A stretch of DNA of 64,000 nucleotides. Source: Octopus vulgaris (Eukaryota). Where the stretch lies: NCBI GenBank assembly GCA_951406725.2, contig OX597841.1, positions 2,914,001 through 2,978,000 on the forward strand. Reading direction: 5' to 3'. How positions within the stretch are numbered: the first letter of the stretch is position 1; each line of letters opens with the position of its first letter. Positions 1-51,000 of this stretch are shown here, in pieces. The position numbers were made by a program.

Positions 1-3000
1 GAAAAAGAAAGATCGCCCAAAAGTGTATATAGATATTTAAATGTATTTATATATTCATCTATACACACATGTATGTATAATGTGCATGTATATATTTCCA
101 TAGAGGTAACCATTCAATCCATACAAAGTTTTTTAGGACGAAAATCTTTATATATAAAAGAAAGGTTGTGTGTCTGTCTACTCCGATTTAGATTCCTAAC
201 TACTCCCACATTTTGCGATGCAGTTTAACCAAAACCGGGTATCTTATAGTCGTGATTCATATCGAGCCCTTCTGGGTATTAGCGCGCGTCTACGATGAGT
301 CTACGATTTTACAAATAATTTACCATCATTTTTTTCCATTTTAATGCATATTTTTTTAATAAAGGGAAGTAACTCTCAAACTTCACACCAATATGCGTGC
401 TCATATGCAACGTAATATCACATCAGCAGCATTTCCTCACACCCTCTTTGCACTTGGCGAAGGCAAAATACCAGGGGATGAAACTGGTAATATTGCCATC
501 GATTCCATTTGTACCATTGTTAAGACGCCTTCTGATCTCAGAGATGCAGTGTTCCCAGATCTACAAGCTAATTATCAGAATATGGATCGGATTGGCCAAA
601 GGGCTATTCTGGCCCCGAGGAATAAAACTGTTCACCATATTAATGATGAAATGCTAAAACTCATTCCTAGGGAAGTCAATGTATATCAGTCTATCGATAC
701 AACTCCTGACCCAGAGGACGTCATCAACTGTCCAATAGAGGTACTCAATTAATTTGAGCACCCCGACTACCACCACACTTTCTCAAACTTAAAGTTGGTG
801 CCACTATAATGCTCATCAGATATTTGGTTCCCCCAAAACAAGGCAATGGCACACGTTTGATCGTTAAGTCCTTATCTCCCACCGTAAACTTATATCAATA
901 TTTGCCTGAATAATCATCATAATTCAGTGCAATCATTAACAGTACTTTCAAGCAATTCAGCCCCGAGCAACACCGGGCAATTCTGCTAGTATATATATAT
1001 ATATATATATATATATATATATATATATATATATATATATATATATATATATATATATATATATATATATATATATGCATTATATAAATATATATATATA
1101 TATTTATATATATACAATCGGTACTATACTGAAACGTAAAGGGAGATAATGAGACTTTTTTGTCTTGAATAGTTGAGAGAGGAAATACGCATGCGCGTTG
1201 AAGGTGCTTCCTAATTGGTTTTGATGTTTGGTGAAATGTCCAGTGTGTCAATTTCTTTGAATCAGCTGATTTTTATACCTTTATAATACTTACAATACGT
1301 ATTTATGATGTGTTTCTCAACTGCCAGACACACACGTATATAACAACACTCTCCTTTATGAAGCATTTCCGTAAGTATTAAGCAAAGAAATTTTTCATTG
1401 TTTTTAATTCTGTAGACTTTAGGTCTTTGGTGCGTCAATTCTTTGTGTCTTTTCTTACTTTTTATGAATGGGAGATGTCCTTGATTTGTGCCGGATTTGG
1501 CTGCTATTTCAAGCTATGAAAGAGAGCTATCACTGATTTGTGCGGTATTTGGCTGCTATTTCTATCTATGAATGGTAGATGTCCTTGATTTGTGCGTTAT
1601 TTGGCTGCTCTTTCTTGCAATGGACAATACCTTCTGCACGCTCCCTTGTTGCCATGTTAGTTTGTAACATTAACCTTCTGTTGTGTTTTATTTTGAGAAA
1701 TATTTTCTAATACATTCCAACCGCTGAAATGTTCAGAAACCAATCCTTTATCGAACGTTTGTTTCTTGGTATAACTAGAGATGTGCGCCCACCCTGATAG
1801 CAATTTGTTTTCTCATAACTAACAATGGATAACTTTAAATAGAAATTTCTGAAAATACTTTTCAGATTATGTAGATCAGTGGTTTCCAAACTCTTTTACA
1901 CCACAGACTGACTTCAAACTCGACAATCTCTCCGCGGACATACGTGTAATTTGAGTGCATTTCGATCAAAAGAGCAATTTATTAAAGGGAGTAAAAAGGG
2001 TTCACCTTCAGTGTTTGACTCGAGCAAAAAAATGAAAATAAAAAAATAGTGTAATAGGTGTAAAAACGTAGTAAACGAATATGAAATTAGAAAATGCGCG
2101 CTGGTGAACGGGAGGGGTGAGGAGACGACTCGGAAAATTCACATCGGGAATGTTCCGAGTCCTCTCGCCACTTCCCCATTCGTCGGCGCAATTTCTTTTC
2201 TTTGTATTATTTTACGCCTAGTACACTATTGTTTCTTTTTTTTTTGTGACGGAGGGTTGGGGTCCAACTCGGATAAGGTGCGCTGACGAATGGTGGGGCG
2301 GAAAGGACTCGGAAACTTCATACGATCAAACTCACAGGATCTAAAAACCCAATGTTAATACCCGATCATAAAAAAGAGGGAAAAAATAGTGTAAAAAGCC
2401 TGTTGCTATATCCGTGAGATCTGTGATCTGTCTCATTGCTATGCCTGTTCTATGCATTGATAACACCTCAACATCTATCTTGTTAACCAAGCTCCTATTT
2501 TCTAATTGAGCATATTAATAGAGTACTCATCAGGTTTTCTCTCCTTTACTTCCTGCCATTGTTCATCTATCTGCTCCCCTATGTTAAATACCAGCTGAAT
2601 CTGTCGCCTCTACATCTTACACTGCTCTTTCTTTATCATTTCAGAACATCAGATGACACTGGCATAACAGAAGAAACATCCTCAATACCTACCACGTTTT
2701 AAGGACTAAAGGAAAATATTATACAAAATAGATGTATCAGATTGTTTCTACAATTCTGAGATAGAGGCCCTGTAAAACATTTACTCTGAGCTGGTATCAT
2801 TAACCAAATTTCTGGACATCACTGACTGGAGTATCAAGAAAGGAGCTTGTATGCTGATTAAACTTGGATAAGTGTATCTAAGTGTTGCTAGACAAAAGTA
2901 ACACTGAGCACAGATAGAAAAGTAGAAGTTTATGTAAGGAATAAAAAGGAAGAAAAATTGATACGTTGTAATTTGCAGGGGAAAATGATGGAAAAGAGTG

Positions 3001-48000: not shown

Positions 48001-51000
48001 GAGACCGATAGGATAAGTACAAGGCTTACAAAGAATAAGTCCTGGGGTCAATTTGCTTGACCAAAGGCAGTGCTCCAGCATGGTCGCAGTCAAATGACTG
48101 AAACAGATGCATTTTTGACTCCATCTAAATCATTCAATGTTTTTCTTTGCAATGAGTTCTGTAGAGACAAGAACAAGTGGTAATCAGATGGCACAATATG
48201 GTCTCTCGTTTTGTACTTAGGTTATTGTTTGTCTACATACAGTAATCCTTCGATTATCGCAGGTGTTACATCCCAAAACCCCATGATGAGTGAAAATATG
48301 CAAAGTAGAAACCTACTGTACTGTATATTCTTCTTCTTATTATTAATTTTATAATTTGTATATATTTATTTTATTATAAATGCAACACAACACCCCAGAG
48401 GAATTGACATAAGCTTAAATAATAAACCGCCATAGGTGAACCCCGATATGGCAAGGGATTACAATATTTCTAGTCATGAAAAAGCCATAAAGTAAGTTAT
48501 TGTATAACATATTTATTGAGTGAAGCATTTAAAAGATAAACAATGAACAAAATGTGAGGATGCGTAATTCAATAAAGAATCATGTGAAGGGTTGACAGGA
48601 GGAGGAAGAGTTTTGGTAGAGAGTTCCTTACACCATGGAATAAAATGTGAAAGTTACAAAAACAAAAAAAAATCTAAAAGTTTTGGAAATTTCCATTGTA
48701 TAAATCAGAGGAATATTATAAATATATAGTAAACTAGAAACTACCCTTTTCCCTTCTTCCCTATATGAATATATTTGTGCTTTGTTAAGCCACTGTTGCC
48801 AGAGAATGATTTACCACAAATATCACAGTGATATGGCTTCTCTCCTGTATGAACATGTTTATGTGAAATTAAGGTACTATTTTGAGCGAATGATTTACCA
48901 CAGATATCACAGTGAAATGGCTTCTCTCCTGTATGAATACGTTTATGCGCAGTTAAGATACGATTCTCAGAGAATGTTTCTCCACAGATATTACAATGAT
49001 ACGGTTTCTCTCCTGTATGAATACGTTTATGTCTAGTTAAGGTACTATTTTGAGAGAATGATTTACCACAGATATCACAGTGATATGGTTTTTCTCCTGT
49101 ATGAATATATCTGTGATTTGCTAAGCCACATTTGTGAGAGAATGATTTACCACAGATATCACAGAGATAAGGTTTCCCTGGTCTATGAATATGCTTATGT
49201 ATAGTTAAGGCAGGACTTTCAGAGAATGATTTGCCACAGATATCACAGTGATATGGTGTCTCTCCTGTATGAATACGCTCGTGTGTAGTTAACAATCTAC
49301 TTTCAGGGAATGATTTACCACAGATATCACAGTGATACGGTTTCTCTCCTGTATGAATACGTTTGTGCGTAGTTAAACCATGATTACGAGAGAATGATTT
49401 ACCACAGATATCACAATGATATGGTTTCTCTCCTGTATGAATATGCCTGTGATTAGTTAAGTTATAACTCTGAGAAAATGATAAACCACAGATATCACAA
49501 CGATATGGTTTCTCTCCTGTATGAATTCGTTTGTGTTGCACTAACTCACTATTTGAAGAGAATGATTTACCACAAATATCACAATGATATGGTTTCTCTC
49601 CTGTATGTGTACGTTTGTGTCGAGTTATGGCACTACTCTGGGAGAATGATTTACCACAGACATCACATTGATATGGCTTTTCTCCTGTATGAATACGTTT
49701 GTGCATAGTTAAATCATGGTTGTGAGAGAATGATTTACCACAGATCTCACAGTGATATGGTTTCTCTCCTGTATGAATACGCTTGTGTCTAGTTAACACA
49801 CTACTTGCAGAGAATGATTTGCCACAGATATCACAATGATATGGTTTTTCATCTGTATGAAAACGTTTGTGTATAGTTAATTGATGATTACTAGAGAACG
49901 ATTTACCACAGACACCACAACGATATGGCTTCTCACCTGTATGAATACGTATGTGTGTAGTTAAGCAATAACTCCGAGAGAATGATGAACCACAGATGTT
50001 ACAATAATATGGTTTCTCTCCTGTATGAATACGCTTGTGTGAAACCAGGGCACTCCAATCAGAGAATGATTCACTACAGTTCTCACAATGATATGGTTTC
50101 TCTCCTGTACGAATATGCTTGTGTGCAGATAAATTACAACTTAGAGAAAATGATTTACCACAGACATCACAGTGATAAGGCTTTTTCTTTGTATGAAGAC
50201 CTTCATGTGAAGTCAAGGCACTTTGGTCAGAGAATGATTTACCACAGATCTCACACTGATATGGTTTTTCCCCTGCATGAATACGTCTGTGGGAAATCAG
50301 GTTACATTTTACGGAGAAGACCTTTTTACAAATGTCACAGTCATACGACAATTTTCTCATCTCTTTTATGTGTTCAGATGAAATCAGTTCTTCAACTTTT
50401 TCACTCTTTTCCATCATTTTCCCCTGCAAATCACAACGTATAAGTTTTTCTTCCTTTTTATTCCTTACATAAACTTCTACTTTTCTATTTGTGCTCAGTG
50501 TTACTTTTGTCTAACAACACTTAGATACACTTATCCAAGTTTAATCAGCATACAAGCTCCTCTTCTTGATACTCCAGTCAGTGATGGCCAGAAATTTGGT
50601 TAATGATACCAGCTCAGAGTAAATGTTTTACAGGGCCTCTATCTCAGAATGGTAGAAACAATCTGATACATCTATTTTGTATAATATTTTCCTTTAGTCC
50701 TTAAAACGTGGTAGGTATTGAGGATGTTTCTTCTGTTATGCCAGTGTCATCTGATGTTCTGAAATGATAAAGAAAGAGCAGTGTAAGATGTAGAGGCGAC
50801 AGATTCAGCTGGTATTTAACATAGGGGAGCAGATAGATGAACAATGGCAGGAAGTAAAGGAGAGAAAACCTTATCAGTACTCCATTAATATGCTCAATAA
50901 GAAAATAGGAGCTTGGTTAACAAGATAGATGTTGAGGTGTTATCAATGCATAGAACAGGCATGACAATGAGACAGATCACAGATCTCACAGATATAGCAA

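What the first reader, a model, noticed from the sequence alone, without database searches (positions are those of the whole stretch)
2985..50417. Constant-variable-constant ZNF genes built by reshuffling a shared pool of fingers
Seen: ZNF1-8 have near-identical introns, 5'UTRs, N-termini and first fingers (L/VKCNLIS then DQSA). They end in one of two conserved 3' ends: HIGKKGKG (preceded in ZNF1/6/7/8 by ESRLL, ESH/PALTI, HKG/CGLAN, QNSTLT, ENRI, QNSTLIS) or D(R/H)SSWAS (ZNF2/4, and ZNF3 beyond its stop). The middle is assembled from recurrent helices ([64 protein letters not shown]) in different order and number: 25, 11, 15, 8, 26, 19, 19, 19 fingers. Mirror partners with matching flanks (ZNF1/ZNF5, ZNF2/ZNF4) have different arrays. 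Known: 84-bp finger units recombine like a minisatellite in PRDM9, and cephalopods have large clustered C2H2 expansions. Inference: the cluster generates new DNA-binding specificities by inter-gene finger exchange much faster than by point mutation.
Basis: partly seen in the sequence, partly recalled or inferred. Interest (0 to 1): 0.75.

Follow-up and report, generated by a model that had tools for sequence, protein, structure and literature searches.

The report
Young zinc-finger gene cluster with recombining arrays
This is a recently duplicated cluster of multi-zinc-finger genes, probably from an octopus-like animal, whose finger arrays differ through 84-bp block duplication, deletion and some exchange between copies, plus selection on DNA-contacting residues, as already described for vertebrate zinc-finger clusters.

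Summary
Eight poly-C2H2 genes lie at 2985-50417, with 25, 11, 15, 8, 26, 19, 19 and 19 units of 84 bp. All share a 620-bp 5' module (97.1-98.9% identical), the first two fingers and one of two 3' ends.

Fingers group by type across genes, not by gene: 106 of 121 units have their nearest relative in another gene. Whole-gene duplication alone predicts that, so it is not evidence of exchange.

Multi-finger blocks recur, rather than freely shuffled single fingers. Hybrid fingers mark in-register crossovers. Some differences are intragenic duplications or simple deletions. Exchange between copies is supported by excess incompatible site pairs in the noncoding flanks (0 of 200 tree simulations reach the observed count) and in one array block. 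A chimeric ninth gene outside the stated range also supports it.

Contact residues show 43 nonsynonymous against 4 synonymous changes. "Much faster than point mutation" is therefore not shown.

This matches what Emerson and Thomas (2009) reported for vertebrate poly-ZF paralogues. It is a new member of a known kind. Assembly correctness could not be tested.

The parts
2985..5249 (+). Z1: poly-C2H2 gene with 25 finger units (24 intact). A 1-bp A insertion frameshifts the last finger.
8905..9909 (+). Z2: 11 fingers, DRSSWAS-type 3' end.
12578..13900 (+). Z3: 15 units up to an in-frame TAG. Unit 14 is degenerate. The array is not collinear with the others.
13901..14060 (+). Two finger units of Z3 after its stop codon (NSSLLAR, DHSSWAS). 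The second has a 14-bp deletion.
17534..18286 (-). Z4: 8 fingers, mirror partner of Z2, DRSSWAS-type 3' end.
22286..24547 (-). Z5: 26 units (25 intact), mirror partner of Z1. Units 7-11 are duplicated internally as units 20-24.
30738..32411 (-). Z6: 19 fingers.
39766..41439 (-). Z7: 19 units (18 intact).
48744..50417 (-). Z8: 19 units (18 intact). Tandem copy of Z7, 5 nt differences in the array.
53719..55116 (-). Z9, outside the finding's range: 16 fingers. Its 5' half belongs to a different subfamily. Its last fingers and 3' flank are of the Z7/Z8 type, so it is a chimera.
60791..62191 (+). Z10, outside the finding's range: 16 fingers, second subfamily. Its 5' region is 74-78% identical to Z9's.
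2437..3056 (+). Constant 5' module of Z1: 455 bp noncoding plus the 165 bp that hold the leader ORF. Equivalent modules lie at 8357-8976 (+), 12030-12649 (+), 18215-18834 (-), 24476-25095 (-), 32340-32959 (-), 41368-41987 (-) and 50346-50965 (-).
5157..7393 (+). Type-1 3' flank module (T1) of Z1. Other copies lie at 20060-22285 (-), 30301-30737 (-, cut short), 37535-39765 (-), 46514-48743 (-), 51508-53718 (-), 33238-35410 (-) and 42273-44395 (-).
35409..35730 (-). Relic of about 3.8 fingers (L', M, N, O types, 95% to Z7 units 12-15), joined directly to a T1 copy. A second copy lies at 44394-44714.
29821..30330 (-). Fragment of a further family member (about 3 fingers) running into a reverse-transcriptase element.
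33289..51694 (.). Two tandem copies of a segment of about 9.0 kb (33289-42718 and 42272-51694, 98.8% identical), carrying Z7 and Z8.
1..27451 (.). Inverted duplication. Arm 1 runs from 1 to about 10 kb (Z1, Z2). Arm 2 runs from 27451 down to about 17.5 kb (Z5, Z4). Z3 and a reverse-transcriptase ORF lie between the arms.
36969..37720 (.). 52-bp minisatellite (14.4 copies) at the outer end of a T1 module. Other arrays start at 1463, 7207, 19781, 33239, 42272, 45949 and 51252, and a 51-bp array at 58707. They lie at the edges of the duplicated segments.

Best explanation
The locus is a young, segmentally duplicated cluster of poly-C2H2 zinc-finger genes that lack KRAB, SCAN or BTB domains. Neutral divergence between copies is about 1-6%. 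Each gene encodes a 24-residue leader and 8-26 fingers in one uninterrupted ORF.

The duplicated unit is [5' module - finger array - 3' flank]. It was copied in inverted form (Z1 Z2 | Z4 Z5) and in tandem (Z6, Z7, Z8). A 52-bp minisatellite lies at the segment edges.

All fingers share about 90% of their bases outside the recognition helix. Misaligned homologous recombination therefore keeps the 84-bp register.
- Within one array it yields block duplications and deletions.
- Between paralogous arrays it yields conversion tracts and chimeric genes.
- Hybrid fingers mark the junctions.

The same exchange, perhaps with constraint, keeps the 5' module nearly identical in all eight genes. Positive selection on helix positions -1, 2, 3 and 6 adds point changes.

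Shown: the anatomy, block sharing, hybrid units, non-tree-like site patterns, and the nonsynonymous excess at contact codons. Inferred: the recombination mechanism, the direction and timing of each event, DNA binding and its targets, and expression.
For: Anatomy:
- Searches give the genes, units and duplications.
- Pfam finds only C2H2 families and no effector domain.
- 5' module identity is 97.1-98.9%. T1 flank identity is 94-99.5%.

Fingers group by type, not by gene:
- 106 of 121 units have their nearest relative in another gene, 7 in the same gene, and 8 tie. Median differences are 2 against 12 of 84 nt. Z8, Z1.25 and Z3.15 were left out.
- On a FastTree of 152 units the gene label changes 103 times. 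Shuffled labels give 106.4 +/- 3.0.

Blocks and junctions:
- Shared blocks and intragenic duplications are listed.
- Hybrid units show clean 5'-to-3' switches. Z5.5 is U/E (5 then 11 informative sites). Z1.3 is D/C (3 then 10). Z1.6 is H/C (2 then 16). Z6.5 is H/K (2 then 16).
- Majority-base conservation is 0.906 over nt 1-33, 0.883 over nt 55-84 and 0.660 over the helix.

Exchange between copies:
- 5' module: 55 of 105 informative site pairs are incompatible.
- T1 flank: 735 of 4950 pairs are incompatible.
- PHI-like permutation gives p = 0.022 and p = 0.0012.
- 0 of 200 NJ-tree simulations reach either count, with or without gamma rate variation.
- E-H-C blocks: 28 of 66 pairs are incompatible, reached by 0 of 300 simulations. 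Without helix codons the count is 8, reached by 3-6 of 300.
- Z9 is 66% identical to Z8 in the 5' module but 98% in the 3' flank. Its last finger differs from Z8's at 1 nt.

Selection:
- Contact codons show 43 nonsynonymous and 4 synonymous changes. The other 21 codons show 76 and 37. Fisher p = 0.00125. The binomial test for dN/dS > 1 at contact codons gives p = 0.022.
Against: - The tail block (Z1 units 15-24 against Z6, Z7 and Z8; 840 nt) shows no mosaic signal (p = 0.09).
- A-B-D units without helix codons show no significant excess of incompatibility. 11-29 of 300 simulations reach the observed count.
- Z2/Z4 and Z1/Z6/Z7/Z8 can be related by a few indels, with no exchange between genes.
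- Divergence everywhere is only 0-6%. Donors, direction and order of events cannot be resolved.
- Identical single units shared by different genes (Z1.5 = Z3.10, Z1.10 = Z5.7, Z5.22 = Z7.7) could reflect constraint rather than recent transfer.
- The Sawyer-type p values are uncorrected. They are also sensitive to clustered differences.
- The substitution counts use identity-defined finger types and a minimum-spanning-tree approximation, not a codon model.
- Parallel selection could produce some homoplasy in helix codons.
- Expression, splicing and binding are untested.
Confidence: 0.72

Rival explanations
1. Whole-gene duplication plus purely intragenic unequal exchange or slippage (deletions and tandem block duplications) explains the arrays. 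No finger sequence moved between genes. Cross-gene similarity is inherited.
For: - Across-gene clustering is what duplication predicts.
- The tail block is tree-like.
- Z5 units 20-24 copy units 7-11, and Z9 units 12-13 copy units 10-11.
- Z2 and Z4 fit two deletions from an A-B-D-G-E-H-T-F-U-V-W-X array, with Z4.5 as an H/U-type hybrid.
- Z1, Z6 and Z7 share 17 of 19 types in order.
Against: - Incompatible site pairs in the noncoding flanks and in E-H-C blocks far exceed tree simulations.
- Z5.20-22 combines E and H variants of the Z5.7-8/Z2 kind with a C unit identical to that of Z7 and Z8.
- Z9 pairs a 66%-identical 5' half with a 98%-identical 3' end.
- Z3 is not collinear with Z1, Z6 and Z7.
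Confidence: 0.18
2. Part of the array diversity, the palindrome or the tandem copies is an assembly artefact of highly similar repeats.
For: - The cluster holds a palindrome of about 10-kb arms, 98.8% identical 9-kb tandem copies, and 84-bp and 52-bp repeats.
- Z1's only frameshift is a 1-bp change in an A run, a typical read-error site.
Against: - All arrays keep one 84-bp register and open frames over up to 2.2 kb.
- The arms differ by about 4-5% and the arrays have private substitutions, unlike a hairpin-read artefact.
- Hybrid units are in frame.
- None of this is a test against reads, which were not available.
Confidence: 0.07
3. A dedicated, possibly somatic or germline-programmed, cassette system shuffles fingers to diversify binding. 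This is the strong form of the reader's PRDM9 analogy.
For: Only the constant-variable-constant layout and the homogeneous 5' module.
Against: - There are no recombination signal sequences and no enzyme gene in the window. The only other coding features are two reverse-transcriptase ORFs.
- Arrays are not homogenised internally.
- Z7 and Z8 have kept identical arrangements since their duplication.
Confidence: 0.02

Closest known systems
Lineage-specific expansions of vertebrate poly-zinc-finger (KRAB-ZNF) clusters, as analysed by Emerson and Thomas 2009 (PMC2604467; passages read)
   Same: Both are tandemly duplicated C2H2 arrays with TGEKP-type linkers. Paralogues differ in finger number through recombination-based gain and loss. 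Positive selection acts at DNA-contact residues. Short gene-conversion tracts occur among paralogues.
   Different: Here there is no KRAB, SCAN or BTB domain, only a 24-residue leader. The genes come from an invertebrate, probably an octopod. The noncoding 5' module is also nearly identical in all copies.
PRDM9 zinc-finger minisatellite (search listing only; properties otherwise recalled)
   Same: Both have 84-bp units in one exon, in-register unequal recombination, and fast change at contact residues.
   Different: PRDM9 arrays are homogenised within the array (recalled). Here the nearest same-gene unit differs at a median of 12 of 84 nt, and TRF finds 72-80% matches. There is no PR/SET or KRAB domain. 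The variation seen here is between paralogues, not alleles.
Cephalopod C2H2 expansions (PMC12513265, abstract and passages; PMC9068888, passages)
   Same: Both form large clusters of recently duplicated C2H2 genes. The leader and first fingers of these genes are 68% identical over 80 residues to an annotated Octopus sinensis protein that starts MEKSEK.
   Different: Those papers treat whole genes (phylogeny, expression, chromosomal clusters). The passages I saw contain no finger-level analysis. 'Gene conversion' occurs 0 times in the first paper and only for protocadherins in the second.
FiNZ-ZNF genes of cyprinid fish (PMC10547256, passages)
   Same: Both are a lineage-specific poly-ZF family with a short family-specific N-terminus, many young paralogues, and positive selection enriched at base-contacting residues.
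   Different: The N-terminal sequence and the animal group differ. TE repression was tested in zebrafish. Nothing was tested here.

Membership tests
Tandem C2H2 (Krueppel-type) poly-zinc-finger genes | Repeated C-x2-C-x12-H-x3-H units of 28 residues joined by TGEKP-like linkers | tested here: met
   137 strict matches in Z1-Z8, all in one register per gene. Pfam zf-C2H2 E = 3.4e-98 and zf-H2C2_2 E = 8e-156 for Z8.
KRAB-ZNF (KZFP) family | N-terminal KRAB (or SCAN/BTB) effector domain | tested here: not met
   Pfam scans of Z8 and Z2 list only zinc-finger and other zinc-binding families. The part before the fingers is 24 residues.
KRAB-ZNF-like evolutionary mode (lineage-specific expansion) | Young tandem paralogues that differ in finger number | tested here: met
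   Flanks are 94-99.5% identical. Arrays hold 8-26 units.
KRAB-ZNF-like evolutionary mode (lineage-specific expansion) | Excess nonsynonymous change at helix positions -1, 2, 3 and 6 | tested here: met
   43 nonsynonymous: 4 synonymous at contact codons against 76: 37 elsewhere, Fisher p = 0.00125. The rate ratio is 2.8 against 0.5. This is a crude parsimony count, not a codon model.
PRDM9-type coding minisatellite | Units within one array nearly identical outside contact codons (concerted evolution within the array) | tested here: not met
   Median 12 of 84 differences to the nearest same-gene unit, against 2 to the nearest other-gene unit. TRF finds 72-80% matches per array.
PRDM9-type coding minisatellite | PR/SET methyltransferase domain upstream of the array | tested here: not met
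   No such Pfam match.
PRDM9-type coding minisatellite | High allelic variation in unit number and order | not testable with these tools
   Only one assembled haplotype is available.
Cephalopod (octopod) C2H2 expansion | Sequence relationship to annotated cephalopod C2H2 genes beyond the generic finger repeat | tested here: met
   Of the 120 listed hits to residues 1-80 of Z6, the best that also cover the leader (98-99% of the query) are Octopus sinensis (68% identity) and O. vulgaris (60-61%) proteins. All start MEKSEK. Exact proteins are absent from the collection, so the species is unknown.
Gene families under concerted evolution by non-allelic gene conversion | Site patterns among paralogues that no single tree explains | tested here: met
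   5' module 55 of 105 and T1 735 of 4950 incompatible pairs. 0 of 200 tree simulations reach these counts. E-H-C blocks 28 of 66, reached by 0 of 300. The tail block shows no signal.

The most novel reading that the evidence does not exclude
The cluster behaves as a cassette-type diversifier. Non-allelic conversion keeps a promoter/leader/first-two-finger module and two alternative tails uniform. In-register exchange among neighbouring paralogues, seeded by the roughly 50-nt linker-plus-hairpin homology, rebuilds the middle of the array. This produces new long-array specificities at least as fast as contact-residue substitution does. On this reading it would be a main engine of the lineage-specific C2H2 expansions of cephalopods, convergent with vertebrate KZFP clusters.
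Probability: 0.2. Interest if true: 0.55.

Novelty: new member of a known kind. Interest (0 to 1): 0.35.

Why it matters
- It would show that an invertebrate C2H2 expansion, probably cephalopod, diversifies with the same tools described for vertebrate poly-ZF clusters: finger gain and loss by recombination, conversion among paralogues, and selection on contact residues.
- It offers a compact 64-kb locus where junctions (hybrid fingers) and duplication edges (the 52-bp minisatellite) can be read directly.
- It gives practical cautions. Such genes cannot be aligned position by position. Gene trees of these families are reticulate. Their assembly needs read-level checking.

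Tried and rejected
- Whole-protein search with Z8 returned only generic vertebrate ZNFs of about 40-60% identity. It gave nothing on origin.
- Exact look-up of all ten proteins found none in the collection.
- Albertin et al. 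2015 (PMC4795812) is not held. What I say of it is recalled.
- I first read the distal 5' flank as three sharply distinct groups, contrasted with a homogenised proximal module. The sliding windows show a modest contrast: about 2-3% against 4-8% divergence between Z1/Z5 and Z2-Z4. Part of it comes from different neighbouring modules, so I do not rest the case on it.
- Long exact matches at shifted array positions could be recent transfers: Z2 u6-8 = Z5 u11-13 (166 bp), Z1 u9-11 = Z5 u6-8 (150 bp), Z1 u4-6 = Z3 u9-11 (141 bp), Z5 u21-23 = Z7/Z8 u6-8 (128 bp). They could also reflect constraint on few synonymous sites. I count them as suggestive only.
- The split-unit test for hybrids is noisy, because the first 33 nt carry few type-specific sites. 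Only units with clean switches at consensus-informative sites are cited. Z2.9 and Z5.17 did not hold up as hybrids. Z3.2 is mixed.
- One search failed on a typing error and was rerun.
- No structure prediction, complex prediction, Rfam search or genome-collection search was run. None bears on the question, and the genome collection holds only bacteria and archaea.

Full report
**What is there.** The window has no N. Stop-to-stop ORFs and an in-register split into 28-codon units give ten poly-C2H2 genes.
- Z1 + 2985-5249
- Z2 + 8905-9909
- Z3 + 12578-13900
- Z4 - 17534-18286
- Z5 - 22286-24547
- Z6 - 30738-32411
- Z7 - 39766-41439
- Z8 - 48744-50417

Strictly intact fingers number 24, 11, 14, 8, 25, 19, 18 and 18. 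Two more genes lie outside the stated range: Z9 (- 53719-55116) and Z10 (+ 60791-62191). There are also three finger relics, at 29821-30330, 35409-35730 and 44394-44714. Pfam finds only C2H2-type families and no KRAB, SCAN or BTB domain. The part before the fingers is a 24-residue leader. Each coding sequence is one uninterrupted ORF and was searched as such. An acceptor-like tttgcag lies 6 nt before the ATG.

**Constant ends.**
- The 620 bp before finger 1 are 97.1-98.9% identical in all pairs of Z1-Z8. They are only 66-68% identical to Z9 and Z10.
- Z5-Z8 end in frame with HIGKKGKG. Z1 has the same DNA, but a 1-bp insertion in an A run frameshifts its last finger.
- Z2 and Z4 end with DRSSWAS. 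Z3 has an in-frame TAG in a linker, followed by two more units. The last is DHSSWAS with a 14-bp deletion.
- The HIGKKGKG genes and Z9 share a 3' flank of about 2.2 kb, called T1 here, at 94-99.5% identity.

**Large-scale layout.**
- There is an inverted duplication: 1-1570 matches 27451-25911 at 95.2%, and 7207-9597 matches 19987-17594 at 93.2%. This makes Z1/Z5 and Z2/Z4 mirror partners, with Z3 between the arms.
- A tandem duplication of about 9 kb (33289-42718 against 42272-51694, 98.8%) carries Z7 and Z8.
- A 52-bp minisatellite lies at the outer end of every T1 copy, at the edges of the duplicated segments.

**Do fingers group by gene or by type?** They group by type.
- Of 121 units of Z1-Z7, 106 have their nearest relative in another gene, 7 in the same gene (6 of these in Z5), and 8 tie. 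Median differences are 2 against 12 of 84 nt. Z8 was left out as a near copy of Z7, along with the frameshifted Z1.25 and the partial Z3.15.
- On a FastTree of 152 units, the gene label changes 103 times. Shuffled labels give 106.4 +/- 3.0.
But this pattern is what whole-gene duplication predicts, and it says nothing on exchange.
- It does separate the locus from PRDM9-type arrays, which are homogenised internally (recalled). TRF finds only 72-80% matches within each array here.

**How the arrays differ.** Average-linkage types at 9% distance give these strings:
- Z1 ABCDECFDGEHCECIJKLMNOPQRS
- Z2 ABDEHTFUVWX
- Z3 AFYJKVZaGEHCbcd
- Z4 ABDGeVWX
- Z5 ABDFEfEHTggFUTTTFUhEHCggij
- Z6 ABDEKHCkiJKLMNOPQRj
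- Z7 = Z8 ABDlEHCkiJKLMNOPQRj

What recurs is blocks: AB(D), E-H-C/T, F-U, J-K, V-W-X, G-E-H-C and the nine-finger J-R tail. Single fingers are not shuffled at random.

Some pairs are related by a few indels:
- Z6/Z7: 2 units.
- Z1/Z7: 3 gap blocks covering 8 units.
- Z2/Z4: 2 gap blocks covering 7 units.

Others are not:
- Z1/Z5 share 9 alignable units and need 7 gap blocks.
- Z3 has J-K before G-E-H-C, while Z1, Z6 and Z7 have the reverse order.
- A deletion-only ancestor would need 39 units for Z1 and Z5 alone. For all genes it would need about 51, a greedy upper bound.

So 'simple deletions from one ancestor' holds for subsets and not for the cluster.

**Footprints of the mechanism.**
- Outside the helix, units share about 90% of their bases. 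Majority-base fractions are 0.906 over nt 1-33, 0.883 over nt 55-84 and 0.660 over the helix. This gives in-register homology.
- Hybrid units show clean switches at type-informative sites. Z5.5 is U then E (5 then 11 sites). Z1.3 is D then C (3 then 10). Z1.6 is H then C (2 then 16). Z6.5 is H then K (2 then 16). Z5.6 and Z4.5 are less clean.
- Intragenic block duplication is clear. Z5 units 20-24 copy units 7-11 at 3.8% divergence. Z9 units 12-13 copy units 10-11.

**Is there exchange between genes?**

Evidence for:
- 5' module: 55 of 105 informative site pairs fail the four-gamete test (Rm >= 5).
- T1 flank: 735 of 4950 pairs fail it (Rm >= 15).
- PHI-like permutation gives p = 0.022 and 0.0012.
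- 0 of 200 simulations on the NJ tree reach either count, even with gamma alpha = 0.2.
- In eight E-H-C blocks, 28 of 66 pairs are incompatible, reached by 0 of 300 simulations. Without helix codons the count is 8, reached by 3-6 of 300. Z5.20-22 carries E and H variants of the Z5.7-8/Z2 kind, next to a C unit identical to that of Z7 and Z8.
- Z9 is the clearest chimera. Its 5' module is 66% identical to Z8's. Its units 1-9 have no close relative in Z1-Z8 (7-21 differences). Its last finger differs from Z8's at 1 nt. Its 3' flank is 97.4-98.3% identical.

Evidence against, or neutral:
- The shared tail (840 nt in Z1, Z6, Z7 and Z8) is tree-like, with private differences of 21, 12 and 7 and a runs test p = 0.09.
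- A-B-D units without helix codons show no significant excess. 11-29 of 300 simulations reach the observed count.
- Identical single units in different genes could reflect constraint.

**Point mutation.**
- Within finger types (27 types, 131 units), contact codons -1, 2, 3 and 6 show 43 nonsynonymous and 4 synonymous changes, a rate ratio of 2.8.
- The other 21 codons show 76 and 37, a ratio of 0.5.
- Fisher p = 0.00125. The binomial test for a ratio above 1 at contact codons gives p = 0.022.
- Per pair, contact changes are as many as unit events or more. Z6/Z7 have 9 against 2, Z1/Z7 13 against 3, Z2/Z4 2 against 2, Z1/Z5 4 against 7, and Z7/Z8 0 against 0.
- Unit events alter more fingers per event. 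The claim that exchange is 'much faster than point mutation' is still not supported.

**Origin and what is known.**
- The exact proteins are not in the protein collection.
- The only named proteins that also match the leader are from Octopus sinensis (68% over 80 residues) and O. vulgaris. Both start MEKSEK. An octopod or related cephalopod origin is likely but unproven.
- Cephalopod C2H2 expansions and clusters are in print (PMC12513265, abstract and passages; PMC9068888, passages). In the passages I saw, gene conversion is raised only for protocadherins.
- My three searches on this point found no finger-level study in cephalopods. Supplements were not opened.
- The mechanism itself is known. 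Emerson and Thomas 2009 (PMC2604467, passages) report three things for vertebrate poly-ZF paralogues: positive selection at contact residues, gain and loss of fingers 'presumably mediated by recombination', and GENECONV-detected conversions.
- Wells et al. 2023 (PMC10547256, passages) report selection at base-contacting residues in fish FiNZ-ZNFs.

**Verdict.** This is an ordinary but clean example of birth-and-death evolution with in-register non-allelic recombination and contact-residue selection, in a KRAB-less family that is probably cephalopod. Assembly correctness, expression and binding stay untested.

Noticed in passing
1463-1622, 7207-7393, 19781-20246, 33239-33887, 36969-37720, 42272-42873, 45949-46699, 51252-51694; 51-bp form at 58707-59222: A 52-bp minisatellite (3-14 copies, 90-94% matches) lies between neighbouring genes. 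It coincides with the ends of the 9-kb tandem duplication (33289/42272 and 42718/51694). It may be the substrate of the unequal crossovers that duplicate whole genes.
   Followed up: partly
35409-35730 and 44394-44714 (-): Two 'ghost' genes. A distal 5' flank is joined to about 3.8 fingers (L', M, N, O types, 95% identical to Z7 units 12-15), and then directly to a T1 flank copy from about +530. They look like a family member gutted by two deletions and then copied with the tandem unit.
   Followed up: partly
53719-55116 (-) and 60791-62191 (+): Two genes of a second subfamily have the leader MEKSEK(S/R)I.LI. Z9 carries the tail and 3' flank of the first subfamily.
   Followed up: yes
15541-16572 (-) and 28658-29638 (-): Two reverse-transcriptase ORFs (Pfam RVT_1, E = 5.5e-31 and 2.4e-17). 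One lies between the palindrome arms. The other abuts a truncated zinc-finger fragment at 29821-30330.
   Followed up: partly
5108-5118 (Z1, last finger): A run of seven A where Z6 has six frameshifts the last finger of Z1. This could be a real mutation or a homopolymer read error.
   Followed up: partly
62375-63242: A tandem repeat with a period of about 168-170 bp (5.1 copies, 89% matches) lies downstream of Z10. It also matches itself in the BLAST self-comparison.
   Followed up: no
27310-27988: A 165-bp tandem repeat (4.2 copies, 88% matches) lies at the outer edge of the right palindrome arm.
   Followed up: no
990-1114, 10163-10485, 28210-28314: Long dinucleotide microsatellites: (TA)63, (AT)162 just downstream of Z2, and (CA)52.
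   Followed up: no
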